A stretch of 64,000 bases of DNA from Candidatus Omnitrophota bacterium (GTDB lineage Bacteria > Omnitrophota > Gorgyraeia > JABMRG01), in NCBI GenBank assembly GCA_030593065.1, contig JAUVHV010000002.1:104098-168097 (forward strand), written 5' to 3'. This document shows positions 19,251 through 58,895 of this stretch, piece after piece (position 1 is the stretch's first letter; each line of letters opens with the position of its first letter). The notes beneath the pieces were generated by a model. It saw only the letters and a list, made by a program, of their open reading frames with translations, had not been told where the DNA came from and searched no databases. The translations under genes and the position numbers were made by a program.

Positions 19251-19805
19251 TTATTTGCTGACCCTCTCTTTTGCTATCCAGCTGTCTATCTCCTCTTTGT
19301 GAAATTTCCATGCATTATTCTCTTTTATTGCCGGGATCTTTTTCTGCGCAGCCCATTCTTTTACAAGCGAGGTATCTACTTCAAGATAACGCGCGACCTC
19401 ATCAATGGCCATTACCTTAGAATTACCGGATGTTATGGTCTGTTCTGATAAAGAAGACATTTTACAATTTCCATTGAGAATTGCGCCATCTGACACAGTA
19501 AGCATAGGAGTTACTATATCACCTATGATATTTGCGGGAGCAATAAGATTGAGCCTTTTGGTTGCTATGATATTGCCGGTAACCTTTCCAGCTATAGTAA
19601 TATTCTCACCATTTATATCAGCCATTACATGGGCATTCTCTCCTATAATAAGATTTCCTTTTGTATCGAGCTTGCCTTCAAATTCACCATTTATTCTAAG
19701 GTCTACAGGATCCTTAAATATCATCGTTCCCTGCATTGTCGCATTTATATCTAATACTTTCTCTACTGGCTGATCATCTTTTTTCGGCCTTCTTAAACTT
19801 ACCAT
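19251..19805 (-). CDS. Bactofilin domain protein fused to a C-terminal excisionase-family HTH
   Basis: 184 aa; bactofilin beta-helix repeats (INGEFEGKL...IGENAHVMADINGENITIAGKVTGNIIATKRLNLIAPANIIGDIV), then MAIDEVARYLEVDTSLVKEWAAQKKIPAIK, an HTH_17-like segment paralogous to the neighbouring gene. Confidence 0.65.
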   Translation of the reverse strand: MVSLRRPKKDDQPVEKVLDINATMQGTMIFKDPVDLRINGEFEGKLDTKGNLIIGENAHVMADINGENITIAGKVTGNIIATKRLNLIAPANIIGDIVTPMLTVSDGAILNGNCKMSSLSEQTITSGNSKVMAIDEVARYLEVDTSLVKEWAAQKKIPAIKENNAWKFHKEEIDSWIAKERVSK

Positions 19806-35290: not shown

Positions 35291-37186
35291 TTACTCATAG
35301 CTAATCGCGATCTGCAATGTTTCTGTATACTTATTAATACTTTTTGGAAATCGTGGAAATGGCGCTGCGCTTACTACGCTCTGCACGCCCAGTTCAAAGA
35401 GGTTATGATCCTTGCCTTTATAAATTTTTGGGGTTGATAGGAGCCTGCCGTAACGGTCTATTTCAAAAGATATTGAGACTTCACCATATACAGGTATATT
35501 TGGCCTTCTTTTCTCAACCTCTTCATTTATCATAGATACTATGAGGTTATAGTATTCATCCGGAGCCATATTCTTTGTATCAATCTCCTTGCTTTTGTTC
35601 ATTTTACCAAAAAAATCCTTTACAGCTATATCCTGTGCTACCTTATCAACTGTAAGCAGGTCTGCAGGCTCTTCCCCACTGATAATATGCGGAGTAAGAA
35701 ATATAACCAACTCTGTTTTCTCAGGATTTGTATTGTCACCGCTGCCTATAGTCCTGGACCGAAATAGATTCCCGATCAGAGGAATATCAGCAAGCCCTGG
35801 AACTTCTCTCACGCTCTCTCTTACATTCTCTTCTATAAGGCCCCCTATCAATACCGTTGCCCCGGATTTTACCATGACAGTTGTCTCTGTTGTGGTAGTC
35901 TTTACTATCGGTATAGTATTCTTGCTACTCTCTATGGTAAAGTCGCCTAATTTTGAACTTACCTCTGGTTTTATCTTCATAGTAACAAAATCATGGTCAT
36001 TAATAGTCGGTTTTACAATAAGTTTTATACCTAAATCGATAAAGGTTACATTTTCCGCTTCAATATTTCCTGTTCCACCACTGCCCTGGCTTATTGTACG
36101 CGTGGCATAGGGCTGGTTTGTACCTACCAGGATACTTGCCTCTTCATTATTAATGACAGCGATTCTTGGTGAAGAGAGCAGTTTTGTCTCTCCATACTCT
36201 TTTAATACCTGAATAACGGCCTGATATCCTTCAGTACTCAAGTTGCCTATCTGCAGGGCTCCACCAGCACCGGTTGCTGTGGTAGTTGGCATGATATTAG
36301 TCTGATCCGAATATTTTAAGCTCACACCAAACGTTGCTATGTTATGCAGGGTATGGTTCATTTTTACAAATACCGCGTCCCAGTTAATACCTGTCCTGTA
36401 ATCATCGTTCAATGTGATCTGTAATATCTTTGCCTCTATAATCACTTCTTTATGTTTTTCATCAAACGCGGCTATAACCTGATCAAATAGAGGTATCCTT
36501 TCCACAAGATCTGTTACAATTACTTTATTCGTACGCTCATCAATACGCAGGTTTCCGACACCATCTGTTAGCATCTCGCTCAGCCTGTCTTTCATCTCAT
36601 CTACTCTTGCATACTGCAGGGAATAGACCCTTGTCTCAAGTGGGATATCGAGGCCTTTGATTATCTTTTCCATTTCAGCTACAACTTTTGGAATATCCAT
36701 AAGTACTATTGTATCAGACGTGTTATCCGCGACAACCCTTCCTATATTAGTCTTAAATTGGGAAATTGCCTTTGATACATCCTCTGCTGCAGCGTACTGA
36801 AGTTTTATAGACTTTACGATGCGCCTGTCCTCATACTTTTTGCCGTAGATTAATTCATAATCACGCTCTGTCATAACATATATAATATTGTCGCGTTTTT
36901 CAAATGCCAGGCCATTTGCCGCTATAATTATCTCAAAGGCCGCCCATGTATCCACATCTTTTAAAAAGAGGGTTACCTTGCCTGTCACGTTCTTTCCCGC
37001 GATAATGTTGAGATTGCCTCTCATAGATAATAACCTGAAAACATCCAGTATATCCATACCTTTGATGTCGAGTGAAAGTTTCTCTATAGGCTCAGGCGCA
37101 ATTGAAACGCTTGCTTGAGCAAAGAGATAACTTTGTGAAGTAACTATTAATGATAAGATCAATATTCCCATTGATATCTTTTTCAT
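35291..37186 (-). CDS. Secretin (GspD/PilQ family) with a C-terminal TonB-C-like domain
   Basis: 631 aa; signal peptide, N0/N1-like domains, secretin core (VLIGGLIEENVRESVREVPGLADIPLIGNLFRSRT), then a C-terminal roughly 90 aa GEVSISFEIDRYGRLLSTPKIYKGKDHNLFELGVQSVVSAAPFPRFP resembling TonB_C. Confidence 0.8.
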   Translation of the reverse strand: MKKISMGILILSLIVTSQSYLFAQASVSIAPEPIEKLSLDIKGMDILDVFRLLSMRGNLNIIAGKNVTGKVTLFLKDVDTWAAFEIIIAANGLAFEKRDNIIYVMTERDYELIYGKKYEDRRIVKSIKLQYAAAEDVSKAISQFKTNIGRVVADNTSDTIVLMDIPKVVAEMEKIIKGLDIPLETRVYSLQYARVDEMKDRLSEMLTDGVGNLRIDERTNKVIVTDLVERIPLFDQVIAAFDEKHKEVIIEAKILQITLNDDYRTGINWDAVFVKMNHTLHNIATFGVSLKYSDQTNIMPTTTATGAGGALQIGNLSTEGYQAVIQVLKEYGETKLLSSPRIAVINNEEASILVGTNQPYATRTISQGSGGTGNIEAENVTFIDLGIKLIVKPTINDHDFVTMKIKPEVSSKLGDFTIESSKNTIPIVKTTTTETTVMVKSGATVLIGGLIEENVRESVREVPGLADIPLIGNLFRSRTIGSGDNTNPEKTELVIFLTPHIISGEEPADLLTVDKVAQDIAVKDFFGKMNKSKEIDTKNMAPDEYYNLIVSMINEEVEKRRPNIPVYGEVSISFEIDRYGRLLSTPKIYKGKDHNLFELGVQSVVSAAPFPRFPKSINKYTETLQIAISYE

Positions 37187-37230: not shown

Positions 37231-37944
37231 TTATAATGAGAGCGTTACGGTCTCATCATTACACTCAAGTATAACTCTGCCGTTTAGTATGTCCTTTACT
37301 CGTATGTTATCAATCATATCACCCTTTTTAAGAAAGAGTGTCTGCCCATTTCTCTTATCCTCTATTATTACCTGTGGTTGGTTTCCAGGTATTATACCAA
37401 CGAGGCTTAAGCCTTTCACTAAATCACGAAGGCCGGGCCCCTCTATCGCCTTTACCTTACCGTTACTTCTGGCAGGCGGCGCGAATATAGCTTTTTTATT
37501 AAGCAGTTTCTGGTAGTCTTCAAATGAAGATGCGGGCTTCTCATTATTAGAGGCCTCTTTTTTTTCAGTAAGCGCCTTCTCCGCCTCAAATTCTCCGGGC
37601 TCTTCTGTCTCTGAAAATGATTTTATAAGAAGCTTTAAATTCTCTACCTCTTGATCTTCTTTGTAAATTAAGGCGGTAAATATAAAATATCCTGCTAAGA
37701 AAACCAGAACAATAAATGCCCCAAGAATCAGATAATTTACATTAAAAGCGGGCTTTAATTTTTGCTTTTTTTTATGGGTTTTCTCCACCGGCGCTTCATC
37801 AGAACTGGGCGCAACCTGTCCGGCCTTCTGCGAGATTGCTTGCGCCACAGGCGGAACAGCCTTTGTCCGGGCAGGAACAACAGAATTCTGTTTTCCTTTT
37901 ATCAGATGAAGTAATTTTTCTTCGGGCGAAAACTCATTTACCAT
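37231..37944 (-). CDS. Bitopic membrane protein, GspB/PilP-like candidate secretin-assembly factor
   Basis: 237 aa; cytoplasmic Lys-rich N-terminus, one TM (ILGAFIVLVFLAGYFIF), periplasmic C-terminal beta-domain (IIEDKRNGQTLFLKKGDMIDNIRVKDILNGRVILE). Sits between the ExeA-like ATPase and the secretin. Confidence 0.4.
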   Translation of the reverse strand: MVNEFSPEEKLLHLIKGKQNSVVPARTKAVPPVAQAISQKAGQVAPSSDEAPVEKTHKKKQKLKPAFNVNYLILGAFIVLVFLAGYFIFTALIYKEDQEVENLKLLIKSFSETEEPGEFEAEKALTEKKEASNNEKPASSFEDYQKLLNKKAIFAPPARSNGKVKAIEGPGLRDLVKGLSLVGIIPGNQPQVIIEDKRNGQTLFLKKGDMIDNIRVKDILNGRVILECNDETVTLSL

Positions 37945-37945: not shown

Positions 37946-38770
37946 TCACCTTACCTCGCGTGCCATTATCTCTTCAATCAGGCTCTCATCCACAATTTTT
38001 CTTTCCCGCATAATAAGCATCTCAAGCGCATCATGACAAAGCATTGATATCTTTCTCGGATACCCCTGAGTATGCTCATATATATGCCTTATAGCGTTAT
38101 CAGTAAATAACTGCTCATCCTTCGTATGGCCTGCTTGTCTTAATCTAAATTCTATAAGCGCCTTGGTCTCATTCTCATCAAGCGGATTAATAATATATTT
38201 AAGATTTACCCTGTCCATAAAATTTCTTATTCTTCGTATCTTCGGTAACAACTCTATCTGTGAAAGTATGACAAGTTGTAACAGCTTATACTGGTTAGTT
38301 TCATAATTCAAAAGAGTCCTTAATATCTCAATCTGTGTGGGGGTAAGTTTCTGGCCTTCATCTATAAGAAGGATTATAGTTTTATTCTCATCAACCCCTT
38401 TTTGGAATAAATATTTTTCCAGTGCGTCCTTATAATCAAGAGTTGACCGAAATGCCGGAGTCACGCCAAACATCTTACCTAAGCTTGAAATAAACTGAAA
38501 TTCCGTCTTGTAACTGGGATCAAGTACCATGTGGAATATAAAATCAGGCTCATCCTTAAAAATTTGAACTAACATCCTGCTTAAAGTTGTCTTTCCCGTC
38601 CCTACATCCCCTAATATTACATTCAGCCCCCTGCGCAGACGTATTGCTATCTCTAATCTTTTTAATGCCGCGTTATGTGAGAAAGATGGATAAAAAAATT
38701 GCGGGTCCGGGCTTGTTGAAAACGGCTCTGATTTCAGGTATAATGCTTCATAATAACTCATCTTCACCAA
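37946..38770 (-). CDS. AAA ATPase, ExeA/GspA-like
   Basis: 274 aa; Walker A VILGDVGTGKTT; ExeA-family architecture without a periplasmic PG-binding extension. Confidence 0.7.
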   Translation of the reverse strand: MVKMSYYEALYLKSEPFSTSPDPQFFYPSFSHNAALKRLEIAIRLRRGLNVILGDVGTGKTTLSRMLVQIFKDEPDFIFHMVLDPSYKTEFQFISSLGKMFGVTPAFRSTLDYKDALEKYLFQKGVDENKTIILLIDEGQKLTPTQIEILRTLLNYETNQYKLLQLVILSQIELLPKIRRIRNFMDRVNLKYIINPLDENETKALIEFRLRQAGHTKDEQLFTDNAIRHIYEHTQGYPRKISMLCHDALEMLIMRERKIVDESLIEEIMAREVR

Positions 38771-38844: not shown

Positions 38845-39069
38845 TCATACTGCAAGCTTCTTTTTTATATGTTCCAGAGATTTACCTTCTTTTCTTAAAT
38901 TTCTAATATGCTTAAGCATGTCAACTGTTGAATCATCAAAAAACCTAAAATTCGTCTCTATACCTCTGCTTATCTCTTTTATAAGTTTTATCTTTAGATA
39001 GAACTTTAACGTGTCCACAGAATAGCCTGTTACTTGCGCAAGATCTCTTATTAAATATATATTCCTCAT
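38845..39069 (-). CDS. MerR-family HTH transcriptional regulator (short); ORF track gives 38845..39132, internal Met start more likely
   Basis: MRNIYLIRDLAQVTGYSVDTLKFY is a MerR-type HTH; embedded in the secretion-system cluster. Confidence 0.5.
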   Translation of the reverse strand: MRNIYLIRDLAQVTGYSVDTLKFYLKIKLIKEISRGIETNFRFFDDSTVDMLKHIRNLRKEGKSLEHIKKKLAV

Positions 39070-39242
39070 TCTTATCAGCCTACGTTTTCTGCAACTATTA
39101 ATATCGCGTTCATTAAAGGTGGATATTATCACTCCATGGGTAAGGAGCCCACCTTCTCCCTACTCATAGAGTTAGTTTATAATGTTTTTGCACTATTGTC
39201 AACTTGTGAGTATAAAAAAATTGGAAAAATAACAGATATTGC

Positions 39243-39276: not shown

Positions 39277-39810
39277 CTACTTCATAACCAACCTAGATAT
39301 AAGCATAGAAGCCCTTATAGCTACGCCTTGTTGGCTACTTCTTGTACTTATATTCAGCTTTTCAATCTTGAGTATTTGTGAAGAATTTTTAATATCATAT
39401 ATAAACCTCATAAGAGAGTCCATATCAGATTCGGTATCTATCTTAACAGCAAACCTGCTATAGTAATCTTTCTGTTCTGGAGGGTTTGGCCTCATGCTTG
39501 TAATCTTAAGGCCTGAACGGCTAGCAATCTTCTCAATCTCATCAAGTATTAATGTTATGTCCTGTTCATTACTCCCTTTTGACTTAAGCTTTTTCTCATA
39601 GGTTGAATATTCCGCATCCACCTTCTGCTTCTCCTTTATAAGAGAGAGGGACTTCTTCAATTTTACTTTGATAAGCTCTATCCTGCTATTAACACTCCTC
39701 CATCGCATAAAGAGTGGTTCTACTAAAAGATTATAGCATAGCCCTATAATAATTACCGCAATTACGCTAACAAGTATTCTCTTTTCTCTCTTTGAAAGTT
39801 TTTCCAGCAT
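39277..39810 (-). CDS. PilO/GspM-like inner-membrane platform protein
   Basis: 177 aa; N-terminal TM, coiled-coil, C-terminal ferredoxin-like domain; follows the pilM-pilN fusion. Confidence 0.55.
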   Translation of the reverse strand: MLEKLSKREKRILVSVIAVIIIGLCYNLLVEPLFMRWRSVNSRIELIKVKLKKSLSLIKEKQKVDAEYSTYEKKLKSKGSNEQDITLILDEIEKIASRSGLKITSMRPNPPEQKDYYSRFAVKIDTESDMDSLMRFIYDIKNSSQILKIEKLNISTRSSQQGVAIRASMLISRLVMK

Positions 39811-41283
39811 CTAATCTAATAAGCCTTTCTTAAAATTACATCTTATCTGAAAATCTATCACAGCAGATCCTCTTGTACGCTTTTCAGTAACAGATCGCGT
39901 CTGCACATTACTAAAACTTACTGAGCTCTCAAGCAGAGTTACTAACTTAAATACATCCGAAATTTTACGCGCCATGCCGCGAAATCGAACAACTCTTGAT
40001 GGGTCATCATAATTAAAATCGAGCAAAAAGATATTCTCCGGTATAAGGTTATGCAGGCTATATATAACATGCAGTGATGAGGCTTCTCCTGAAAGCTGCT
40101 CTTTGATACTCCGCAACTTTTTAAATTTTATCTCTACCCGGCTGGCTGCCGGCTCTATCTGCCCATACATCAATTCAAGCTCATTCAAAAGCTTCTCTTC
40201 CTGGTATATCTTTAAGCCTATTAATGCAAGTACAACTGAAAAGATAAGAAATGAAGTAATTGTAATGCCTATAATTTTCCTGATTGCAACATTTTGGCTC
40301 TGCTTTTTTTTCTCATCCTGCGAAATAAGGTTGATACCTTCCCCGGCAAACGGGCCTCCACACACTGCGCACATCGAAACATCCTGGGGTATCCCTGTTT
40401 CAGCTAATGCTTCGTCCGCAAGAAAGGCTCCGTGCAGCACATTTACCGCTTTGCAGGGAGTCTCGACAGCAATCGCGAAAAATTCCGCGAAACTTTTAAT
40501 AACAGAATTAGCGCCTGTTACAACAAACTCAGATATATCTCTTGCTTCCGTAGTCTTCTCTTTAAGATACGCGGCTATTGAACGCTTTATCTCATCTACA
40601 AGCCTTGTTTTTGATGAATCGTCTTGCCACTCCTGCTCCAATATATCCAGCGCGCCTATAGAAATAGATCTACTAAAACTGAGTTTTCCACCGGAAACTA
40701 TTATTATCTCAGTATCATCACTATCTATATCTATGAGGCAAATGTTCTTCTCTTTTGTTAAAGTTACTCCGGCTGTATCCAGCCACCCGATTATAACCTC
40801 TGAACTCAATCTTATCCGCTTAAGCCTGTTACCTGATATACCTAATATATGGTTAATCCGTACAATCTCGTTTTTTGGGGAAACAACCAGCATAACCCTG
40901 GAATAGCCTTCCGCGTCCCTACCCAATACCTCGTAATCTGAGATAATCTCATCCTGGGAATATGGCGTCTGCTTTGTGATCTCAAATGATACCATCTTCT
41001 CTATCTCTGACTTATCCAGAGCAGGAAGGCGTATATACCTTACCATTGTCCGCTCTCTGGAGATGATAAAAGTAACAGAATCGAGTTTTATACCGTTACT
41101 GCTTGCGGTATCATTTAGCAATTTAGCTATCTCTTCCTCAGATAATCCGAATACAGGTTCAATTAAAAGTTTAGTTACAACAGGCCCATTAGGGGTAATC
41201 TCTGACTGCAGGATCTTGAGATATTTTTTATCTACCTCTATATACAGATTCGGTTTTTTAGATAGGATAAACGGAAGATTCAA
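39811..41283 (-). CDS. Type IV pilus assembly PilM-PilN fusion protein
   Basis: 490 aa; actin-like PilM region (ICLIDIDSDDTEIIIVSGGKLSFSRSISIGALDIL), then a TM segment (IIGITITSFLIFSVVLALIGL) and a PilN-like periplasmic domain. Confidence 0.7.
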   Translation of the reverse strand: MNLPFILSKKPNLYIEVDKKYLKILQSEITPNGPVVTKLLIEPVFGLSEEEIAKLLNDTASSNGIKLDSVTFIISRERTMVRYIRLPALDKSEIEKMVSFEITKQTPYSQDEIISDYEVLGRDAEGYSRVMLVVSPKNEIVRINHILGISGNRLKRIRLSSEVIIGWLDTAGVTLTKEKNICLIDIDSDDTEIIIVSGGKLSFSRSISIGALDILEQEWQDDSSKTRLVDEIKRSIAAYLKEKTTEARDISEFVVTGANSVIKSFAEFFAIAVETPCKAVNVLHGAFLADEALAETGIPQDVSMCAVCGGPFAGEGINLISQDEKKKQSQNVAIRKIIGITITSFLIFSVVLALIGLKIYQEEKLLNELELMYGQIEPAASRVEIKFKKLRSIKEQLSGEASSLHVIYSLHNLIPENIFLLDFNYDDPSRVVRFRGMARKISDVFKLVTLLESSVSFSNVQTRSVTEKRTRGSAVIDFQIRCNFKKGLLD

Positions 41284-41289: not shown

Positions 41290-42426
41290 TTACTCCTGAT
41301 ACCAATATTTAATTAAAGGCGGCCTATTCTTATTTTTAAAGCTATATACCGCTTCCAATTTTATCTTTACTTTTTTTACCTGGGCCGATACTATTGCGCG
41401 ATATGTATCTGAAGTTACGCTAAACTGTGGATCAAAGCCTGAAATAAGATCCCTTATCCTGCTGTATTCATCGATTGTTATACCATAGATATTAGCATAC
41501 CATTCGGCATCTTGCAAATTCTTTATTTCAACAAGCCCTTCTTTTCCTCTGTCAATTATAGTTGAACCGAAAGAAAACCACGCGTCATCACTTGTACCGA
41601 TAAGGCCATCTTCACCAGACCTGAAATTCGCTATCTTAGATGGGAGATTAGTAAAAACAGGGCCTATCAGGGCACTCAGAACCGGTTCGCTCGCGCTATT
41701 TATATTTATTTTTCCACTACCAAAAATTGTAATATACGGTTTAATCATATTCAGAATCCGCGGCGCAATACCCCTTACAAGCAAAAGTTCATATATCGTA
41801 TCGAAATCTGAATTCTTACAATCATATCCCTGTAAAAGGCCTTGATAGTAGGTGTTTTCAGCGCCATAGAGAAGCCTGTCTTCAGAAGAGGCGACATCAT
41901 TATCCATATCACGCCAATCTATTATAGCACCCGCTATATCCATGGCGTCATCTTCATCAATATCAAAATATAATAAGAGGTTGCTTATTGTCTCGTCACT
42001 AGCTGTATTAATATTTATTTTTGACTCTTCATCCATGAACCCATATAGCGTAACAGGAATATCGTCACTTTTTTTGGGTAAAGGATATTCATACCCCACT
42101 GTATAGCTTCCATCTCCAAAACGATGCCTGTCAAACAACTTCGTATTATTTGCCCAGGGTTGGCTTAAAGCATCCACGCCTATCGAAAGGTTATTTTTGT
42201 ATTCAAGCCTTTTCTCTGCCAATACGCGTATAATACCGGCACGGGCTATAAAATAGGCCTTTAGTTTATCAATATCATAAGATGTAAGCTTAAGTGAAAT
42301 AGCTGACTGCCTTCCTATGCTTACTGCAAATACAGCAAGTATAGCGACCATCCAAAGAGTGGTTATAAGTATTAGTCCTTTTTTGGTATTAGGCCCGCAA
42401 TTACCGGTTATCGGCTCGTAATTCAT
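41290..42426 (-). CDS. GspK-like minor pseudopilin (T2SS K / PilX-like)
   Basis: 378 aa; N-terminal hydrophobic helix; KININTASDETISNLL HhH-like motif typical of GspK. Confidence 0.6.
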   Translation of the reverse strand: MNYEPITGNCGPNTKKGLILITTLWMVAILAVFAVSIGRQSAISLKLTSYDIDKLKAYFIARAGIIRVLAEKRLEYKNNLSIGVDALSQPWANNTKLFDRHRFGDGSYTVGYEYPLPKKSDDIPVTLYGFMDEESKININTASDETISNLLLYFDIDEDDAMDIAGAIIDWRDMDNDVASSEDRLLYGAENTYYQGLLQGYDCKNSDFDTIYELLLVRGIAPRILNMIKPYITIFGSGKININSASEPVLSALIGPVFTNLPSKIANFRSGEDGLIGTSDDAWFSFGSTIIDRGKEGLVEIKNLQDAEWYANIYGITIDEYSRIRDLISGFDPQFSVTSDTYRAIVSAQVKKVKIKLEAVYSFKNKNRPPLIKYWYQE

Positions 42427-42438
42427 AATTACTTATTT

Positions 42439-43155
42439 TTATTCCTCTCTTGCCAACATATTAAGTTCTGCTAATACTGTATTAGAAAGCCTGCCCACAG
42501 GGATACATATCTGCCTGTAAAACTTTTTCTGGCTACTATCTTCAAAGCCTGATACTGACAACTTGACCTTTATTCCAAGCGGTAATCCATTTTCCGTTTC
42601 CCAGAAATCGAGCCACTCATATTCTATGATTCTTTCTTCTTCCTCAGTATCTCCGGCTGCTTTATCCACGTTGGAATATAGATAAGTGAATTTAAGATCA
42701 GTAACTCCGTAAAGTATAACGGGCTTTTCTTTTATAGGAGTTTTTAAGGCGTCTTCTTCAATATTCTCTTCAGTTACTGAAAGCAGGCCAAGAGCGTCTT
42801 TTAAGGATTCCACTTTTCTTATCAGGGCATGGCCTTTGTTACCCTGTTTTAAATAATAACTTACACGTCCAACATTTACATCCGCATTATCATTTTCAGT
42901 AATTGTAGTTACAAAAGAGGCCCTATTGCTATAGCCTTCAAAGGGTATATTGGATACATATACCATATTTTTAAAATCCTTTGTCATCTTTAAAAAGACG
43001 TGCCTTATTCTTTGCTGAAATTCCGCTTCAGTTTCAATGCGCTTATAGGATATAATACCACCTCTAAAACATGAATATAGCACAACAGCTATCGCGGAAA
43101 ATATAGCCACAGATACCAGAAGTTCAATTAATGTAAAAGCCTTCGCCCTATTCAT
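42439..43155 (-). CDS. Prepilin-type N-terminal cleavage/methylation domain pseudopilin (GspJ-like)
   Basis: 238 aa; KAFTLIELLVSVAIFS class III signal. Confidence 0.65.
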   Translation of the reverse strand: MNRAKAFTLIELLVSVAIFSAIAVVLYSCFRGGIISYKRIETEAEFQQRIRHVFLKMTKDFKNMVYVSNIPFEGYSNRASFVTTITENDNADVNVGRVSYYLKQGNKGHALIRKVESLKDALGLLSVTEENIEEDALKTPIKEKPVILYGVTDLKFTYLYSNVDKAAGDTEEEERIIEYEWLDFWETENGLPLGIKVKLSVSGFEDSSQKKFYRQICIPVGRLSNTVLAELNMLAREE

Positions 43156-43577
43156 TCTTCCTCATTTTCAATAACAATCGGCACGTATGTCAATATATCT
43201 ATCTTTCTTTCAGCTCCTCTTGCCTGCCAGGTTACGGAAGTGATAAATCGTTCTATTTCAAGGTCTTCCTGGCCATATTCATCATCCATATCATCCCTGG
43301 TAAGGGGAAGCGTCTGGCTTTTTAATAGGAAGCCTATGTCCATAAACTCTTCTTCCTTGAAAAAAGATAGGCCGACTCTCTCTGAACCGGGATCAAGCTC
43401 AAGTCCGAAAGTCCTGTTCTTTAAAAAAAGAATAGCCCCACGGTAACTGTTAGATAACGAAACTGCTTTTAGCGATGAGGTAAATGCGTGGTTAATAAAA
43501 ATAATAGAAACGGCTACAATGACAACTGTTATCAGTACTTCAATTAACAAAAATGCCTTATTCTTCGATATAATCAT
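43152..43577 (-). CDS. Minor pseudopilin (GspI-like)
   Basis: 141 aa; KAFLLIEVLITVVIVAV prepilin-like N-terminus. Confidence 0.55.
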   Translation of the reverse strand: MIISKNKAFLLIEVLITVVIVAVSIIFINHAFTSSLKAVSLSNSYRGAILFLKNRTFGLELDPGSERVGLSFFKEEEFMDIGFLLKSQTLPLTRDDMDDEYGQEDLEIERFITSVTWQARGAERKIDILTYVPIVIENEEE

Positions 43578-44043
43578 AAACTTTTATTGAGCCTGTGCCT
43601 GCCTCTATTGAGACTGCGATGGTTCTATTTTCTTTATTAGTAAGGTATACAGTCACGGAATTCGTATCACCGTCAGGTAAAAAGTCTATTGTCGCCTTAT
43701 CTGCCTTAACCTCTATACCATCCGGTATCTTAAAAGGCCTTCCCCACCTCTCCTTTAGCGGCTTAAAAGTATTATCCCCTTCATCTTCAACAGATATCTG
43801 GTACAAATTATTATCAATATCTATAGTAAGCCTGTATTTTATTCTTTCAAATACCGCTCTTTCACGACAAAAATTTGCTATATATGCAATATTTTTAGCG
43901 GAAGTTGTAATCCTGAGATCCTCATAGGTTCTTCTAAAAAGCGGGGTAGACAACACAACAAGGGCAAGAATAATTGCGGCAACCAACATCAATTCCAGGA
44001 GAGTAAAAGCGTATTTTGATTTTAAAATTTTTACCTTCCTCAA
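43558..44043 (-). CDS. Minor pseudopilin (GspH-like)
   Basis: 161 aa; YAFTLLELMLVAAIILAL prepilin signal. Confidence 0.6.
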   Translation of the reverse strand: MRKVKILKSKYAFTLLELMLVAAIILALVVLSTPLFRRTYEDLRITTSAKNIAYIANFCRERAVFERIKYRLTIDIDNNLYQISVEDEGDNTFKPLKERWGRPFKIPDGIEVKADKATIDFLPDGDTNSVTVYLTNKENRTIAVSIEAGTGSIKVYDYIEE

Positions 44044-44108
44044 TAAAATAGCTGTTTCATAACTATTTTATGGCTGTATGAAAATTTTGCAAATTTCTAT
44101 ACTATAAG

Positions 44109-44531
44109 CTACTCCTCTGCAACTTCCCAATTTACAATATCATCTGAGCTCTCTATGCCATCGGCTCCGCATGAAAATAGATCGTAATCCTGGGTATTAT
44201 GCACGCCTGGAGATATATAGTTATAGGGATTTCCCCAGGGATCTTTAGGGGTCTTTTTTATGTATGGGCCTTTCCAGTTAGGGGGAACCGGGGGAGAAGA
44301 GGGCATCTTTCTTAAAGCCGCAAGCCCCTGTTCAGTCGAAGGATATATACCATTATCAAGCTCATAAAGATCGAGCGCGGTTGCAAGATGTGCTTCTATC
44401 TGAGCTTGGGCTGCCGCAAAACGCGCCTCTTGTGATCTGCCAACAAGCCGCGGTACAACCAAGGCAACAAGTACGCTTATGATAATAACAACAAGCATAA
44501 GTTCTATTAAAGTAAAACCTCTTTTTTTCAT
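44109..44531 (-). CDS. gspG: Major pseudopilin GspG-like
   Basis: 140 aa; KRGFTLIELMLVVIIISVL, then ...LYELDNGIYPSTEQGLAAL...KDPWGNPY typical of GspG. Confidence 0.82.
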   Translation of the reverse strand: MKKRGFTLIELMLVVIIISVLVALVVPRLVGRSQEARFAAAQAQIEAHLATALDLYELDNGIYPSTEQGLAALRKMPSSPPVPPNWKGPYIKKTPKDPWGNPYNYISPGVHNTQDYDLFSCGADGIESSDDIVNWEVAEE

Positions 44532-44539: not shown

Positions 44540-45547
44540 CTATCCTAATTTAGCGCAGGATTTTCGCTCTATAAGTTTTGTTTCTAATAGAATCTTCAGA
44601 GGCTGCTTCTTCTTTCCTGTTACTATCTGATTTAATAATTCTACACCCATCCTTCCCATCTCCGCAATAGGCTGCCAGACTGTTGTTAAGGCAACAGGCG
44701 AATATGAACAAAGCGGATTATCATCAAAACCTACAATCGATATATCATCCGGAATCTTTAACCCCTTATTCCTTGCAACATCCATAGCTTCCATAGCCAT
44801 TACATCACTAGCGCAGAATATCGCGGTAGGGGGCTCTTTGAGTGATAAAAGATGCTCCATGGCCTTTTTAGCGGGTGAACGAAGATAATGGCCTACTGTA
44901 ATATAATTTGCGCTCAGCCTTAAACCATTTGACTTAATAGTAGATTTAAAACCCTCAAGCCGTTTTTTGCCGCTCTCTGTTGAAAGATCCCCCGCGATAG
45001 TAGCAATATTCTTATGGCCTAATTTCACAAGATACTCTATCACATTTATAGCTGCTTTTTCGTTATTTATGGCAATAGAATTTACAGGTTCTTTTTCAAA
45101 AGAATTGTTCAGTACCATACAAGGTACTTTTCGCGCAAGAATCTTCTTAAGCTGCTGCCTGTCACCATTTATATCAGCGAAAAGTATACCATTTATATAC
45201 TCGGGACTTAATGCGCTGCTTGTAAGCCAGTCCTCGTGTTTCTGCTTTTCACTTATATGGATTATAATGTCGATCTTTAACCTGCTTGCCGCAAGCACTA
45301 CCCCCTTTATAACCTTTGTGGCATAGAAAGAGTGGAATATATCTTCAAACTGCGGAACAATAAGGCCAAAGACCTTGCCTGTTTTACGTTTTATAGCTGG
45401 GCTTACAAAAGCATTAAGCTTTATACCTTTTATCGCGTCTTCGACTTTTTTTCTGTCACGTGATTTTACATTAGGAGCCCCGTGGATAACTCTTGAAACA
45501 ACCATGGATGAAACATTTGCCTTTTTTGCTATATCACTTATCTTCAA
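44540..45547 (-). CDS. LacI-family transcriptional regulator
   Basis: 335 aa; N-terminal HTH (MKISDIAKKANVSSMVVSRVIHG) and a periplasmic-binding-like sugar-binding fold; placed between gspF and gspG. Confidence 0.8.
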   Translation of the reverse strand: MKISDIAKKANVSSMVVSRVIHGAPNVKSRDRKKVEDAIKGIKLNAFVSPAIKRKTGKVFGLIVPQFEDIFHSFYATKVIKGVVLAASRLKIDIIIHISEKQKHEDWLTSSALSPEYINGILFADINGDRQQLKKILARKVPCMVLNNSFEKEPVNSIAINNEKAAINVIEYLVKLGHKNIATIAGDLSTESGKKRLEGFKSTIKSNGLRLSANYITVGHYLRSPAKKAMEHLLSLKEPPTAIFCASDVMAMEAMDVARNKGLKIPDDISIVGFDDNPLCSYSPVALTTVWQPIAEMGRMGVELLNQIVTGKKKQPLKILLETKLIERKSCAKLG

Positions 45548-45575: not shown

Positions 45576-46793
45576 TTATCGTATCATCAAATTTAACTGA
45601 AATATAGGTAAAAGCATAGCAATTACTATAAAACCAACTGCCATACCCATAAAAAGTATGAGTCCCGGCTCAAGCAATGATGCAATTGTCTTTATTGTGC
45701 GGTCAATCTCAGTATCATAAGCATCCGCAATCTTGAAAAGTGACCTCTCCAGCGTACCGCTCTCTTCACCAACAGCTATCATATTTGTTACCATTGCCGG
45801 AAAATATTTACTCTTTTTTATGCTTTCTGATAAAGAAGCACCCTCTACAATATCCTTTCTAGCCACCTCCATATCCTGCTTTATAAGAGTGTTTCCTAAC
45901 GTACCGGCAGCTACACCCAATGCTCGAATAATAGGTACGCCATTTTCAATAAGCGTACCTAATGTCCTGCCAAACCTTGCTATCTCTACTTTCCGGATAA
46001 AGGAGCTTATAAGCGGAACTTTAAGTTTTATTGCGTCAAAAACAGCTTTGCCATCTTTTGTTTTTAACCACCTCTTAAAAACAGTTATAGCAATTATTAT
46101 GATAATTATTATTGATACCCAAAACCTTGCGAAAAAACTACTTACGGCAATAAGTATTTTTGTAGGCAATGGCAGCGCCTGGCCAAGGTCGATAAATATA
46201 GCTGTAAGCCTGGGAGCTACAAAACTTAAGAGAACAAATATCGTAATAAATCCTACAAACACCATTAATGCAGGATATGCCATACTGGCACGTACTTTTG
46301 ATATGCTCTCTTCATCCTTTTCCATAAAATCGCTTAGCCGCCTTAAAACATCCTCCATGCTGCCGCTTATTTCACCGGACGCAACCATATTAACATATAA
46401 GACAGAGAATACTTTAGGATGTTTTGCCAAAGCTGCTGAAAATGTAGTGCCACCTTTTACATCATCCCGTATAAGTCCTATTGTATGCCTTAAGTGCGGG
46501 TTTTCACTCTGCTCTATCAATACACTTAAACCACTTAGCATGGTAAGGCCTGAATCGAGAAGATTTGAAAGCTGCCTGGTAAAATTACTCAAATCTCGTA
46601 ATGGGATAGACTTAAAAAACAAGAGCCTTCCTTTTGATTTTTTTATAAAAGCAGCTGTCTCCTCTTCAATAGAAAGAACAAAAAAACCCATTGAGCTAAG
46701 CTTCGCGGCCGCCTGGTTCTGGCTTTCAGCTTCTATTTTTCCTTCCTTGACTTCAGCAGGCCCACGCTTTGCTTTATAGATAAACCTTGGCAT
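45576..46793 (-). CDS. gspF: Type II secretion system F-family inner-membrane platform protein
   Basis: 405 aa; duplicated GspF domains with three TM segments. Confidence 0.85.
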   Translation of the reverse strand: MPRFIYKAKRGPAEVKEGKIEAESQNQAAAKLSSMGFFVLSIEEETAAFIKKSKGRLLFFKSIPLRDLSNFTRQLSNLLDSGLTMLSGLSVLIEQSENPHLRHTIGLIRDDVKGGTTFSAALAKHPKVFSVLYVNMVASGEISGSMEDVLRRLSDFMEKDEESISKVRASMAYPALMVFVGFITIFVLLSFVAPRLTAIFIDLGQALPLPTKILIAVSSFFARFWVSIIIIIIIAITVFKRWLKTKDGKAVFDAIKLKVPLISSFIRKVEIARFGRTLGTLIENGVPIIRALGVAAGTLGNTLIKQDMEVARKDIVEGASLSESIKKSKYFPAMVTNMIAVGEESGTLERSLFKIADAYDTEIDRTIKTIASLLEPGLILFMGMAVGFIVIAMLLPIFQLNLMIR

Positions 46794-46795
46794 GT

Positions 46796-48496
46796 CTAGC
46801 CTTCAGTTTCTATCTCAGTAACACGCAAAACTTCTCTTATTGTAGTTATGCCCTTTTCAACCTTCGCCATGCCATTGTTAAATAAAGTTCTCATGCCATT
46901 TTTAAGGGCTCGTTCTTTTATCTCATTTATAGAGGCTCTTCTTAGCACAAGGTCACGTATCTCATCATTCATAACGAGTATTTCATAAATTGCGGTTCTG
47001 CCCTTAAACCCGGTAAATTTGCATGATTCACAACCCTTGCCCTCAAAAAAAACTCTCTTCTGATTAAGATCAAGCTTAAGCTCTTTAAAGAGTTCCTTAT
47101 CCGGCACAACTTCCTTTTTGCATTTATCACATATTACCCTTACCAGCCTCTGCGCGATAGCCGCTTCTGTTGAACTTGAAACGAGATATGGCTCAATACC
47201 CATATCGAGTAACCTTGTTATCGCTCCAGTTGCGTCATTAGTATGTAATGTTGAAAATACAAGGTGCCCGGTCAGAGCAACCCTTATGGCTATCTCAGCT
47301 GTCTCAATATCTCTTATCTCTCCAACCATCATGATATCCGGATCATGGCGTAACATTGAACGTAACCCCGCACCAAAGGTGAGGCCGATTTTTGTGTTTA
47401 CCTGTATCTGGGTAATACCTCGTAACTGATATTCAATAGGATCCTCTATAGTTATGATATTCTTGCTTGCGTCATTAATCTTACTCAAACAGGCATAAAG
47501 CGTTGTTGTTTTTCCGCTTCCCGTAGGGCCCGTAACAAGTAACATGCCGTGGGGTTTCCTTATTATCTCTTCAATAACATAAAGGTCATTTCCAAAAAGG
47601 CCCAACTTCTCAAGCCCCATCAGTATACTGCCGCTTAATATCCTGATATGAACACTCTCACCATATGATGTTGGAATAACCGATATCCTGAAATCAAGTT
47701 CCGCGCCTGCTATTTTTAATTTTATCCTGCCATCTTGCGGAAGACGTTTTTCCGCGATATTTAGCGCAGACATTATCTTTATGCGTGAAACTATAGCTGA
47801 ATGAAGGTATTTTATTGTTGGTGGTATACTAGCGTTGAATAAAACACCATCTACGCGATACCTTATACGGAGCTCTCCTTCAAATGGTTCTATATGTATA
47901 TCTGTTGCCCTTTCGGTAACAGCCTGATGAAAAACCTGATTTACAAACTTTATAATTGAGGCGTCATCCGCCATATCATCGATATTGCCGGATGCCTCAA
48001 GTTGCGTAGGCCCGGAGCCCCCCACATCTGCCTGGCCTATAATCTTTTCTACTGTCTCAGCGCCAACTCCGTAATATTTCTTTATAGACTCGAGTATATC
48101 CTTTTCACTTGATAAAACAGGCTCTATATCATACTTAAGGATCAGCTTTATATCATCTAATACCCCAAGATCAAGGGGGTTTGTTACCGCGATTGTCAAT
48201 TTTATGCCTTCAAGGCTTATTGGAATTATTTTGTAGTAACAGGCGAATTTGGCAGGAACCTTTTCAATAATCTCTGGTTTAATATCAAAATCTTTTAATC
48301 TTTTGTATTGAACGCCTATCTGACGGGAGAGCGCAATAAGGACATGCTCTTCGGTTGCAAAACCCAGATTGACAATCGTGCTGCCGATTAAGCCACCTGT
48401 CTTTTGCTGATCTGAAAGTGCCTTCTCAAGCTGCTCAGCAGTGATTACCTTATCCTCAAGAAGCATCTCACCCAGTTTTCTATCAGCCATTGCCAT
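46796..48496 (-). CDS. gspE: Type II secretion / type IV pilus assembly ATPase (GspE/PilB family)
   Basis: 566 aa; N-terminal T2SSE_N domain, Walker A GPTGSGKTTTLYA, tetra-Cys zinc motif (CDKC...CESC). Confidence 0.9.
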   Translation of the reverse strand: MAMADRKLGEMLLEDKVITAEQLEKALSDQQKTGGLIGSTIVNLGFATEEHVLIALSRQIGVQYKRLKDFDIKPEIIEKVPAKFACYYKIIPISLEGIKLTIAVTNPLDLGVLDDIKLILKYDIEPVLSSEKDILESIKKYYGVGAETVEKIIGQADVGGSGPTQLEASGNIDDMADDASIIKFVNQVFHQAVTERATDIHIEPFEGELRIRYRVDGVLFNASIPPTIKYLHSAIVSRIKIMSALNIAEKRLPQDGRIKLKIAGAELDFRISVIPTSYGESVHIRILSGSILMGLEKLGLFGNDLYVIEEIIRKPHGMLLVTGPTGSGKTTTLYACLSKINDASKNIITIEDPIEYQLRGITQIQVNTKIGLTFGAGLRSMLRHDPDIMMVGEIRDIETAEIAIRVALTGHLVFSTLHTNDATGAITRLLDMGIEPYLVSSSTEAAIAQRLVRVICDKCKKEVVPDKELFKELKLDLNQKRVFFEGKGCESCKFTGFKGRTAIYEILVMNDEIRDLVLRRASINEIKERALKNGMRTLFNNGMAKVEKGITTIREVLRVTEIETEG

Positions 48497-49781: not shown

Positions 49782-49814
49782 TGTTAATCCATTTTCCGCC
49801 AATATATAAGAGAA

Positions 49815-49891
49815 TGGCGCGCCTGACAGGATTCGGACCTGTGACACCCAGTTCCGGAAACTGGTGCTCTATCCAGCTGAGCTACAGGCGC
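49815..49891 (-). tRNA. tRNA-Arg (anticodon CCG)
   Basis: Minus-strand cloverleaf folded by hand: acceptor GCGCCUG/CAGGCGC, D-arm UAGCUCAGCUGGAUAGAGC, anticodon arm CCAGU-UUCCGGA-ACUGG, T-arm ACAGG-UCCGAAU-CCUGU, 3' CCA encoded. Position 55 reads C rather than the usual U. Confidence 0.8.
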
Positions 49892-58881: not shown

Positions 58882-58895
58882 TTTATTGTTTAGCC

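What the first reader, a model, noticed from the sequence alone, without database searches (positions are those of the whole stretch)
35291..37186. Secretin with a C-terminal TonB-C-like domain
The last roughly 90 residues (encoded at about 35291-35570) match the TonB/TolA C-terminal fold pattern (GEVSISFEIDRYGRLLSTPKIY...ELGVQSVVSAAPFPRFP), appended to a standard N0/N1/secretin protein. A TonB_C module on a secretin could anchor the outer-membrane channel to peptidoglycan or to another periplasmic partner. It could also replace the missing GspC/PilP-secretin contact in this reduced system.
Basis: partly seen in the sequence, partly recalled or inferred. Interest (0 to 1): 0.5.

Follow-up and report, generated by a model that had tools for sequence, protein, structure and literature searches.

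The report
Secretin carrying a tethered TonB-like domain
The outer-membrane channel of a complete type II secretion system in an uncultured Omnitrophota bacterium ends in a real TonB/TolA-type domain on a floppy tether, a phylum-wide domain fusion that I found described in no paper and whose binding partner is still unknown.

Summary

All full-length relatives among the top 120 keep the tail, and every named one is Omnitrophota. The operon is a complete T2SS set, and the gene directly upstream encodes a GspC/GspB-type HR-domain protein.

The tail has no inner-membrane anchor, so it cannot be an energy transducer. The same module also occurs on Tad-type secretins, on a TolC-like channel and in periplasmic tandem arrays. 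That favours a general envelope-docking role (peptidoglycan or an envelope protein) over a T2SS-specific contact. The ligand is inferred, not shown.

Verdict: a new variant of a known kind, of moderate interest.

The parts
35291..37186 (-). Whole ORF: 631-aa GspD-type secretin with a C-terminal TonB/TolA-like domain (stop codon 35291-35293)
   Evidence: ORF listing. Pfam Secretin, Secretin_N x2, STN, TonB_C. 2699 homologues, all named ones Omnitrophota. Full-length AF2 model. Foldseek top hits PulD, ExeD, GspD.
37118..37186 (-). Signal peptide, residues 1-23 (MKKISMGILILSLIVTSQSYLFA|QA). No lipobox Cys, so not a lipoprotein.
   Evidence: Read from the sequence. Helix 2-16 in the model. It is the only hydrophobic window in the protein. 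The cleavage site is inferred from the A-x-A-like pattern.
36845..37081 (-). N0 domain (STN-like), residues 36-114. The most conserved part of the protein (69% all-pairs identity).
   Evidence: STN 21.1 bits and type_II_gspD_N0 15.3 bits, both below threshold. Secondary structure and pLDDT about 80-88. Conservation. Invariant ISLDIKGMD strand.
36464..36820 (-). Two ring-building Secretin_N domains, residues 123-179 and 183-241
   Evidence: Pfam Secretin_N, 2 stretches, 76.9 bits. AF2 secondary structure.
35681..36448 (-). Secretin barrel/gate domain, residues 247-502
   Evidence: Pfam Secretin 328-502, 151 bits. AF2 strands 247-502. Foldseek to PulD/ExeD/GspD.
35564..35680 (-). Flexible linker, residues 503-541. 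Not conserved, and 30-126 residues long and K/E/P-rich across the family.
   Evidence: pLDDT below 50 at 505-519 and 521-533. 16% all-pairs identity against 40-69% for the domains. Length range and composition.
35294..35563 (-). TonB/TolA-type C-terminal domain, residues 542-631: alpha1 542-559, beta1 568-577, beta2 587-590, alpha2 594-607, PFPRFP loop, beta3 621-630. The protein ends directly after beta3.
   Evidence: Invariant or near-invariant residues Y545, F574, G580, P586, P609, F610, P611, F613, P614, Y630.
37231..37944 (-). Upstream partner gene: 237-aa GspC/GspB-like protein. It has a conserved cytoplasmic SPEEKLLxLIKGK motif, one TM helix (about residues 63-96), a conserved periplasmic F..Y......K.IF.P motif, and a C-terminal HR domain (about residues 178-237, nt 37234-37413).
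   Evidence: Profile hit to GspC-HR 3OSS_C at E 8.6e-5. 7 of 8 members hit T2SSC, 6 of 8 hit T2SSB. TM scan. Adjacent to the secretin in all related loci.
37946..38770 (-). ExeA/GspA/MshM-like AAA ATPase, 274 aa. Cytoplasmic only: no TM helix and no periplasmic peptidoglycan-binding domain.
   Evidence: AAA_22 55.5 bits. TIGR03015 173.5 bits, below its cut-off. No hydrophobic window. Conserved synteny.
38845..39132 (-). Small MerR_1-family protein conserved inside the operon
   Evidence: MerR_1 51 bits. Present at the same position in all 7 loci with enough flank and in the deep-clade locus L025.
39277..41283 (-). Inner-membrane platform: PilO/GspM (39277-39810) and a PilM-PilN single-chain fusion, GspL-like (39811-41283)
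   Evidence: PilO, T2SSM_b, NF040576 GspM; PilM_2 + PilN. TM scan.
41290..44531 (-). Pseudopilin set: GspK (41290-42426), GspJ (42439-43155), GspI-like (43152-43577), GspH-like (43558-44043), GspG (44109-44531)
   Evidence: T2SSK_1st, T2SSJ, T2SSG, N_methyl. Prepilin-type N-termini of the two ORFs without a Pfam hit, read from the sequence.
45576..48496 (-). GspF platform protein (45576-46793) and GspE ATPase with an MshEN N-domain (46796-48496). A LacI-family gene (44540-45547) lies between GspF and GspG.
   Evidence: T2SSF 197 bits; T2SSE 451 bits + MshEN; LacI + Peripla_BP_3.

Best explanation
SHOWN. This is the outer-membrane secretin (GspD-type) of a complete type II secretion-like machine in a bacterium of the phylum Omnitrophota. 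Classical GspD ends in a small S-domain that binds a pilotin. This secretin instead continues through a disordered, poorly conserved, K/E/P-rich tether into a well-folded, conserved domain of the TonB/TolA C-terminal superfamily. The tether is 39 residues here and 30-126 residues in relatives. The protein's only hydrophobic segment is its signal peptide, and no ExbB/ExbD genes lie in the operon. So this is not a TonB or TolA protein and it cannot carry force from the inner membrane. It is an inverted arrangement: a TonB-type head hung from the outer membrane into the periplasm.

INFERRED. The head works as a docking module that ties the channel to something else in the envelope. The only structurally documented mode of action of this fold is adding a partner's short beta-strand to the edge of its own sheet at beta3. 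Here beta3 is the conserved last element of the protein. In the same phylum the module is also fused to Tad/CpaC-type secretins and to a TolC-family channel, occurs in three copies on one GspD-type secretin, and forms periplasmic arrays of 3-6 copies. I therefore think the ligand is generic to the envelope: peptidoglycan, or a common cell-wall- or membrane-associated protein. On this reading the tail positions or stabilises the channel relative to the cell wall. [quoted passage not shown] The ExeA-like ATPase of this operon has lost that domain. The identity of the ligand is not shown.
For: Domain identity:
- Family-level Pfam hits, 46/57 TonB_C and 45/57 TonB_2.
- Tail profile against PDB hits TonB 6SLY/5LW8 at E 1e-6.
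- AF2 tail model pLDDT 90.4.

A tethered, selected domain:
- Tail identity is 40% across the family against 16% for the linker.
- The linker is low-confidence and 30-126 residues long.
- The tail is present in all full-length members of the top 120.

Not an energy transducer:
- No TM segment other than the signal peptide.
- A separate ExbB-ExbD-TonB cassette lies 21 kb away, and its C-terminal domain is only remotely related to the tail: BLASTP E about 1, hhalign E 0.003.

Generic use of the module:
- P0121: GspD-type secretin with 3 tails.
- P0170 and P0275-P0280: Tad-type secretins with 1-2 copies, found in an RcpC-secretin-TadZ/TadA locus. The named members are Omnitrophota.
- P0265: 6 copies plus a TolC-like OEP domain, in a cluster named Omnitrophota.
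- Proteins with a signal peptide followed by 3-5 copies.

Analogy:
- In the same hit list, CpaC-type secretins of other taxa carry LysM and PilQ-type secretins carry AMIN.
- The ExeA periplasmic peptidoglycan-binding domain is required for secretin assembly (PMC4098917), and the ExeA-like protein here has no periplasmic part.
- Beta-strand addition is the binding mode of TonB/TolA C-terminal domains (PMC12204202).
- A role of the TonB C-terminal domain in peptidoglycan binding has been proposed (PMC9022066, citing Kaserer 2008).
Against: No binding partner was identified and no binding could be tested.
- Peptidoglycan binding by TonB-type domains is only a proposal in the literature.
- The copies on Tad secretins, on the TolC-like protein and in the arrays keep the canonical TonB SSG/LD..AA motifs. 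The GspD-type tails have lost them. The subfamilies therefore need not share a ligand, which weakens the inference from distribution.
- Tandem arrays are also compatible with multivalent binding of a protein motif.
- I have no genome-wide information on whether Omnitrophota lack Pal, OmpA or other tethers.
Confidence: 0.4

Rival explanations
1. T2SS-specific docking. The tail captures a short beta-strand motif of another component of the same machine and so adds a second outer-membrane to inner-membrane link beside the N0-HR contact. The most obvious candidate is the conserved periplasmic F..Y......K.IF.P segment of the upstream GspC/GspB-like protein. Other candidates are PilN/PilO, a pseudopilin or a substrate.
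For: - Beta-strand addition is the established mechanism of this fold (PMC12204202).
- The secretin and the GspC/B-like gene are adjacent in every locus, including the deep clade.
- The GspC/B-like family has a conserved, otherwise unexplained periplasmic motif just before its HR domain.
- Many family members keep the TonB 'YP' motif before beta1.
- The literature has already proposed a TonB-like interaction between ExeB and the secretin N0 domain (PMC4098917).
Against: - The same module is found on Tad-type secretins, on a TolC-like channel and in free periplasmic arrays. None of these has this partner.
- No conserved TonB-box-like motif exists at the secretin's own mature N-terminus.
- The candidate motif in the upstream protein rests on 8 sequences and was not tested for interaction.
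- A 39-residue tether reaches roughly 10-12 nm at most, which limits the possible partners.
Confidence: 0.25
2. Assembly aid, a substitute for the S-domain and pilotin. The tail acts in cis or between neighbouring protomers, helping the 12-15-mer to form, to be targeted to the outer membrane or to be clamped. It would replace the missing S-domain/pilotin pair.
For: - The tail occupies the position of the S-domain at the C-terminus of the barrel.
- No pilotin-like gene is seen in the operon.
- TonB C-terminal domains can dimerise (PMC9022066).
Against: - The long, variable, disordered tether is unlike the short, tightly packed S-domain.
- Secretins with two or three tails, and the periplasmic arrays, are hard to explain as ring clamps.
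- The monomer model gives no information on inter-protomer contacts.
Confidence: 0.15
3. Energy-coupled gating. The tail takes part in a TonB-like, proton-motive-force-dependent step, for instance by being pulled by the resident ExbB-ExbD-TonB system to open the secretin gate.
For: - A TPR-ExbB-ExbD-TonB_C cassette is present in the same window.
- There is a historical proposal that ExeAB acts like TonB (PMC4098917).
Against: - The tail has no inner-membrane anchor and no ExbBD-binding helix.
- It sits on the outer-membrane protein itself.
- No TonB box was found on the secretin.
- ExbBD is not linked to the operon in any related locus.
Confidence: 0.03
4. Artefact: a chance sub-threshold HMM match, or a mis-assembled or frameshift-fused gene.
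For: On the single sequence the TonB_C and TonB_2 scores are below Pfam's gathering thresholds, and NCBIfam finds nothing.
Confidence: 0.01

Closest known systems
GspD-type T2SS secretins (PulD, ExeD, EpsD, ETEC GspD)
   Same: Signal peptide, N0, ring-building N domains and a Secretin barrel. Encoded at the end of an operon with GspC-like, E, F, G-K, L-like and M genes. Best structural matches are PulD, ExeD and GspD.
   Different: Only two Secretin_N domains instead of N1-N3. No S-domain or pilotin. A tether plus a TonB/TolA-type domain instead. Scores are below the NCBIfam GspD and PilQ equivalog cut-offs. No solved secretin in the PDB comparison aligned over such a tail.
TonB and TolA C-terminal domains (H. 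pylori TonB-CTD 6SLY/5LW8; E. coli and P. aeruginosa TolA-III 2X9A, 1TOL, 6S3W)
   Different: Anchored to the outer-membrane barrel and not to an inner-membrane helix. No ExbBD/TolQR coupling. This GspD-type subfamily has lost the SSG motif, and in this protein the Y of the 'YP' motif. Only remotely related to the genome's own TonB.
Peptidoglycan-binding accessories of secretins: AMIN domains of PilQ, LysM of TsaP/FimV and of some CpaC-type secretins, the periplasmic PG-binding domain of ExeA/GspA
   Same: An accessory periplasmic module attached to, or working with, a secretin. ExeA-like and GspB/C-like genes sit next to the secretin, as in the ExeAB-ExeD system (PMC4098917).
   Different: A different fold, and no evidence that it binds peptidoglycan. 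It lies C-terminal to the barrel, whereas AMIN is N-terminal. The ExeA-like protein here lacks the periplasmic domain altogether.
Other Omnitrophota proteins with the same module, found here
   Same: TonB_C/TonB_2 domains closely related to the tail: on Tad-type secretins (P0170, P0275-P0280), on a TolC-like OEP protein (P0265), in triplicate on a GspD-type secretin (P0121) and in periplasmic arrays (P0122, P0137, P0146 and others).
   Different: These copies keep the canonical SSG/LD..AA motifs. Copy number and position differ: N-terminal to the OEP domain, and separated by very long K/E-rich spacers in the Tad type.

Membership tests
Secretin superfamily (Pfam PF00263) | C-terminal Secretin barrel/gate domain scoring above threshold | tested here: met
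   PF00263 at 151 bits against a 27.5 cut-off, residues 328-502. AF2 beta-barrel strands 247-502. Foldseek E 5e-23 to PulD and other secretins.
Secretin superfamily (Pfam PF00263) | N0 (STN-like) domain plus ring-building Secretin_N domains | tested here: met
   Secretin_N at 76.9 bits, 2 stretches. N0 is below threshold by HMM (STN 21.1 against 28.4) but is the best-conserved region and is folded in the model.
T2SS secretin GspD (NCBIfam TIGR02517 equivalog) | Score above the equivalog cut-off | tested here: not met
   235.4 bits against a 351.35 cut-off. PilQ TIGR02515 scores 243.6 against 284.35. By HMM it belongs to neither curated subfamily.
T2SS secretin GspD (by context) | Encoded with GspC, E, F, G, H, I, J, K, L, M | tested here: met
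   All are found upstream on the same strand, with GspL as a PilM-PilN fusion and GspC as a GspC/GspB-like HR protein. The order is conserved in 7 genome loci and in a deep-clade locus. A prepilin peptidase was not seen in the window.
T2SS secretin GspD | C-terminal S-domain that binds a pilotin | tested here: not met
   After the barrel come only a disordered linker and the TonB-like domain. No pilotin-like gene is in the operon.
TonB/TolA C-terminal domain superfamily (Pfam TonB_C PF03544, TonB_2 PF13103) | HMM score above the gathering threshold on this sequence | tested here: not met
   TonB_C 16.7-20.4 bits against 24.6. TonB_2 18.3-18.9 bits against 22.
TonB/TolA C-terminal domain superfamily (Pfam TonB_C PF03544, TonB_2 PF13103) | Homology shown at the level of the orthologous family | tested here: met
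   46/57 and 45/57 tails match at E <= 0.01, best 1.4e-8 and 3.7e-10. The profile hits TonB 6SLY at 1.1e-6. Stand-alone relatives sit behind ExbB-ExbD.
TonB/TolA C-terminal domain superfamily (Pfam TonB_C PF03544, TonB_2 PF13103) | Three-stranded sheet packed against helices (alpha-beta-beta-alpha-beta) with a C-terminal edge strand | tested here: met
TonB/TolA C-terminal domain superfamily (Pfam TonB_C PF03544, TonB_2 PF13103) | Conserved YP and SSG sequence motifs | tested here: inconclusive
   The P is kept. The Y is present in many relatives but is R in this protein. SSG is absent from GspD-type tails but present in the related arrays and Tad-type copies.
TonB / TolA energy-transducer proteins | N-terminal inner-membrane helix that couples to ExbB-ExbD or TolQ-TolR | tested here: not met
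   The only hydrophobic segment is the cleavable signal peptide. The domain hangs from an outer-membrane barrel.
TonB / TolA energy-transducer proteins | Genetic linkage to exbBD or tolQR | tested here: not met
   None in the operon here or in any related locus. The window's ExbB-ExbD-TonB cassette lies 21 kb away and has its own TonB.
TonB / TolA energy-transducer proteins | Binding of a TonB box or TolB-type strand by beta-strand addition | not testable with these tools
   Needs complex modelling or biochemistry. No TonB-box-like motif was found at the secretin's N-terminus.
ExeA/GspA-ExeB/GspB secretin-assembly system | AAA ATPase paired with a single-pass protein whose periplasmic domain binds secretin N0-N1 | tested here: inconclusive
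   An AAA_22 ATPase and an HR-domain protein (T2SSB in 6/8, T2SSC in 7/8) are adjacent to the secretin. Binding was not tested.
ExeA/GspA-ExeB/GspB secretin-assembly system | Periplasmic peptidoglycan-binding domain on the ATPase subunit | tested here: not met
   The 274-aa protein has no TM segment and no PG_binding hit. It is MshM-like.

The most novel reading that the evidence does not exclude
Omnitrophota may use outer-membrane-tethered 'inverted TonB' heads as a phylum-wide envelope-tethering system. In this reading TonB/TolA-type domains are hung on flexible spacers from several unrelated outer-membrane channels (GspD-type and Tad-type secretins, a TolC-family channel) and multiplied in periplasmic arrays. 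They would bind peptidoglycan or a common inner-envelope partner, and so link the outer membrane and its machines to the cell wall in these ultra-small cells. That would be a kind of outer-membrane tether distinct from Lpp, Pal, OmpA and OmpM.
Probability: 0.2. Interest if true: 0.7.

Novelty: new variant of a known kind. Interest (0 to 1): 0.45.

Why it matters
Secretins are the outer-membrane gates of type II and III secretion, type IV pili and filamentous phage export. How they are targeted, anchored to the cell wall and connected to the inner-membrane platform differs between lineages, and is usually solved with accessory modules such as the S-domain and pilotin, AMIN, LysM proteins or ExeAB.

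Here an entire phylum of poorly known, ultra-small and possibly host-dependent bacteria uses a different accessory: a TonB/TolA-type head hung from the outer-membrane side. This shows that the TonB C-terminal fold is used outside energy transduction. It also gives a clean, small (about 90-residue), well-predicted domain for binding studies. If the ligand proves to be peptidoglycan or a common envelope protein, that would reveal how Omnitrophota hold their envelope machines in place.

Practically, it also explains why annotation pipelines name some of these secretins 'energy transducer TonB' (P0052), which is a misnomer.

Tried and rejected
- The search for related loci with the 57-sequence tail alignment failed because it had no conserved stretch. 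I repeated it with 11 close tails. That reaches only the near clade plus stand-alone TonBs, so it does not survey other phyla.
- Foldseek against AFDB50, which would have given a cross-phylum survey with organism names, was not available.
- Recent duplication of the genome's own TonB as the origin of the tail is rejected: BLASTP E about 1 and hhalign E 0.003 with 16% identity.
- I looked for a TonB-box-like strand at the mature N-terminus of the secretin. That segment varies in length and sequence until the invariant N0 strand, so there is none.
- NCBIfam on the isolated tail gave no hit.
- I asked whether the nearest stand-alone relatives are TolA and not TonB. Five sit after ExbB/ExbD, one next to haem-utilisation genes, and none next to TolB/Pal, so they look like TonBs.
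- Six literature searches, plus targeted full-text term searches within four papers (secretin with TonB, Omnitrophota, fusion, peptidoglycan, tethering), found no description of a secretin-TonB_C fusion. The library lacks most subscription journals, so absence is not proof.
- P0114 looked like a tail-less full-length homologue. It simply ends inside the linker and is probably truncated.
Full report
**1. The observation.** The window holds an uninterrupted 631-codon ORF at 35291-37186 on the minus strand. Pfam finds a Secretin domain (residues 328-502, 151 bits), two Secretin_N domains (77 bits) and a weak STN/N0 match. It also finds a weak TonB_C match over the last 64 residues: 16.7 bits on the full protein and 19.9-20.4 bits on the isolated tail, against a cut-off of 24.6. 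TonB_2 scores 18.3-18.9 bits against 22. NCBIfam reports nothing for the tail.

**2. Family-level test.** A search of 5.8 billion proteins gave 2699 homologues, and every named one is Candidatus Omnitrophota/Omnitrophica. One of them, P0052, is named 'energy transducer TonB' by NCBI.
- Of the best 120, 116 carry the same tail at their extreme C-terminus. The other four are three fragments and one protein that stops inside the linker.
- Among 57 tails made non-redundant at 62% identity (alignment A1), 46 hit TonB_C and 45 hit TonB_2, with best E-values of 1.4e-8 and 3.7e-10.
- An HMM of A1 hits the solved C-terminal domain of Helicobacter pylori TonB at E about 1e-6.
- AlphaFold2 with A1 gives a confident model (pLDDT 90.4, pTM 0.80) with topology alpha1-beta1-beta2-alpha2-beta3.
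- Foldseek's first 24 PDB hits are all TonB, TolA, HasB or FusB C-terminal domains, the best with TM 0.70.

**3. Anatomy of the protein.** A full-length model built with 76 homologues gives the following.

| Residues | Feature |
|---|---|
| 1-23 | signal peptide, no lipobox |
| 36-114 | N0 |
| 123-179, 183-241 | two ring-building N domains |
| 247-502 | barrel |
| 505-533 | low-confidence segment |
| 542-630 | tail domain, pLDDT about 88 |

All-pairs identity across the family is 69% for N0, 47% and 52% for the N domains, 56% for the barrel and 40% for the tail, but only 16% for the linker. The linker ranges from 30 to 126 residues and is K/E/P-rich. The tail is therefore a selected, folded domain on a flexible tether. 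The protein has no hydrophobic segment apart from the signal peptide. The full-length model matches PulD, ExeD and GspD best, and no solved secretin aligned over such a tail.

**4. Context.** All neighbours are on the same strand. Upstream lie the following genes.

| Gene | Coordinates |
|---|---|
| GspE (with MshEN) | 46796-48496 |
| GspF | 45576-46793 |
| LacI-family gene | 44540-45547 |
| GspG | 44109-44531 |
| GspH-like, GspI-like | 43558-44043, 43152-43577 |
| GspJ | 42439-43155 |
| GspK | 41290-42426 |
| PilM-PilN fusion (GspL-like) | 39811-41283 |
| PilO/GspM | 39277-39810 |
| small MerR-family gene | 38845-39132 |
| ExeA/GspA/MshM-like ATPase, 274 aa, no membrane segment | 37946-38770 |
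| 237-aa single-pass protein | 37231-37944 |

I collected eight orthologues of the 237-aa protein from related loci. Their C-terminal profile hits the GspC HR domain of the solved GspC-GspD complex (3OSS_C, E 8.6e-5). Seven of 8 hit Pfam T2SSC and 6 of 8 hit T2SSB. A deep-clade orthologue has a precomputed T2SSC hit. The order GspJ-GspK-PilMN-PilO-MerR-ATPase-HR protein-secretin is conserved in all seven genome loci with enough flank, and in the deep clade. The system is therefore a complete T2SS-type machine with its GspC/GspB-like N0 partner present.

**5. Relation to real TonBs.** The window also encodes a TPR protein followed by ExbB, ExbD and a 234-aa TonB_C protein (58177-62465; TonB_C 40.9 bits). 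Its C-terminal domain is only remotely related to the tail: BLASTP E about 1, and hhalign E 0.003 in register. So the tail is not a recent copy of it.

In the species-representative genomes, loci L012-L024 from other phyla encode 200-350-aa stand-alone proteins with the domain at their C-terminus and no secretin. Five sit directly behind ExbB-ExbD, and one is followed by haem-utilisation genes. The tail's relatives outside Omnitrophota are thus ordinary TonB-type proteins.

The tail fails the defining features of a TonB or TolA protein. It has no inner-membrane helix and no ExbBD/TolQR linkage, and it hangs from the outer-membrane protein. It cannot transduce energy.

**6. Wider distribution of the module.** The tail profile, run against 1.84 billion representative proteins, found 7476 proteins at E <= 1e-3 and 870 at E <= 1e-10. 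Among the best 150 were 40 secretins or secretin fragments, 25 non-secretin proteins with 2-5 tandem copies, 78 short single-copy proteins (including many of about 200 aa, TonB-like in size) and one longer single-copy protein. Notable architectures:
- **P0121:** a GspD-type secretin with three tandem tails.
- **P0170 and P0275-P0280:** Tad/CpaC-type secretins (T2SS-T3SS_pil_N + Secretin) with one or two copies separated by very long K/E-rich spacers. P0170 is encoded in an RcpC-secretin-TadZ/TadA locus, and the named members are Omnitrophota.
- **P0265:** a signal peptide, six TonB_C copies and a TolC-family OEP domain, in a 90% cluster that NCBI names Omnitrophota.
- **P0210:** TPR repeats plus about five copies.
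- **Several proteins:** a signal peptide plus 3-5 copies.

In the same hit list, CpaC-type secretins of other taxa carry BON and LysM, and PilQ-type secretins carry AMIN. One caveat applies. The arrays and the Tad-type copies keep the canonical SSG/LD..AA motifs of TonB_C, whereas the GspD-type tails have lost them. A common ligand is therefore not guaranteed.

**7. Mechanism.**
*Shown:* a TonB/TolA-type head, conserved and folded, tethered by a disordered spacer to the periplasmic end of a T2SS secretin, with no route for energy input.
*Inferred:* it is a docking module.

The structurally established action of this fold is adding a partner's strand to its edge strand (PMC12204202). A role of the TonB C-terminal domain in peptidoglycan association has also been proposed (PMC9022066). 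Secretins commonly depend on cell-wall-binding accessories. ExeA's periplasmic peptidoglycan-binding domain is required for ExeD assembly and ExeB contacts N0-N1 (PMC4098917), and the ExeA-like protein here lacks any periplasmic part.

The same module decorates two secretin classes and a TolC-like channel, and forms arrays. I therefore rank the readings as follows.

| Reading | Confidence |
|---|---|
| General envelope or cell-wall anchor | about 0.4 |
| T2SS-specific partner, with the conserved K.IF.P segment of the upstream protein as the most obvious candidate | about 0.25 |
| Substitute for the S-domain/pilotin in assembly | about 0.15 |
| Energy-coupled gating | about 0.03 |
| Artefact | about 0.01 |

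Against the anchor reading, no peptidoglycan-binding fold resembles the tail and no binding was tested.

**8. Novelty and score.** No paper in the searchable library describes a secretin-TonB_C fusion, but that library lacks most subscription journals. The architecture is visible in precomputed Pfam annotations and has led to at least one misleading product name. It is a new variant of a known kind: a known channel and a known fold in an unreported, phylum-wide and evidently selected combination. The ligand is unknown. Interest is moderate at 0.45. The most novel reading not excluded is an Omnitrophota-wide 'inverted TonB' tethering system for outer-membrane machines, with probability about 0.2 and interest 0.7 if true.

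Noticed in passing
window 38845-39132 (-): A 95-aa MerR_1-family gene sits inside the T2SS operon, between GspM/PilO and the ExeA-like ATPase. It is conserved at that position in every related locus, including the deep clade, and often overlaps the ATPase start. A DNA-binding regulator so tightly embedded and conserved is unusual. It could have a structural or coupling role with the ATPase.
   Followed up: partly
window 58177-62465 (-): Cassette of an 827-aa TPR protein (TPR_6/YbgF-type repeats), ExbB/TolQ, ExbD/TolR and a 234-aa TonB_C protein. It could be a Ton or a Tol-like system. No TolB or Pal was seen downstream, where the genes are CutA1, a small zinc-ribbon-like ORF and a 223-aa protein with no Pfam hit.
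   Followed up: partly
P0265 (L028:3320-6871), P0129: An Omnitrophota protein with a signal peptide, six tandem TonB_C domains and a TolC-family OEP domain: a TolC-like channel decorated with TonB heads.
   Followed up: partly
P0170 (L027:1851-5126), P0275-P0280: Tad/CpaC-type secretins of Omnitrophota carry one or two TonB_C domains separated by 100-300-residue K/E/R-rich spacers reminiscent of TolA domain II. P0170 lies between RcpC/CpaB and a TadZ-TadA-like fusion ATPase.
   Followed up: partly
P0121; P0122, P0137, P0142, P0146, P0168, P0210: A GspD-type secretin with three tandem tails, and secreted proteins made of 3-5 tandem TonB_2 domains (one also with TPR repeats). P0142 is labelled Candidatus Melainabacteria, so the arrays may not be confined to Omnitrophota.
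   Followed up: no
window 39811-41283 (-): PilM (actin-like ATPase fold) and PilN are fused into one 490-aa chain with a single TM segment near residue 340. This reproduces the GspL architecture from T4P-type parts.
   Followed up: no
window 44540-45547 (-): A LacI-family regulator (HTH plus a periplasmic-binding-protein-like sensor) is inserted between GspF and GspG, which suggests sugar-responsive control of the secretion operon.
   Followed up: no
window 53656-56205 (-): A single 849-aa ORF fuses a radical SAM domain, Memo and AMMECR1, the three components of the AmmeMemoRadiSam system that are usually separate genes. It has an N-terminal hydrophobic leader.
   Followed up: no
window 384-5043 (-): A run of folate and C1 genes: MTHFR, an MTHFR C-terminal-domain protein (DUF5981), FolD, an FTCD_C cyclodeaminase-like protein and formate-tetrahydrofolate ligase. 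This resembles the methyl branch of the Wood-Ljungdahl pathway.
   Followed up: no
window 49815-49891 (-) and 48576-49847 (-): tRNA-Arg(CCG) overlaps by about 33 nt the GTG start that the mechanical ORF list gives for the MiaB-like radical SAM gene. The true start of that gene is probably further downstream.
   Followed up: no
window 19251-19805 (-): A bactofilin domain fused to a C-terminal HTH_17 DNA-binding domain in one 184-aa protein.
   Followed up: no
window 1-64000: Nearly every gene is on the minus strand. The one large exception is a 746-aa spermidine-synthase-like protein at 51453-53693 (+). GC skew is negative in every 2-kb bin, so the window lies in one replichore with a very strong gene-strand bias.
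   Followed up: no
L001, L002, L003, L006, L010: Genome records holding the closest relatives are titled 'uncultured Planctomycetia/Planctomycetales bacterium', while the proteins' other sources call them Omnitrophota. Both phyla belong to the PVC group, so these labels are probably coarse or mistaken.
   Followed up: partly
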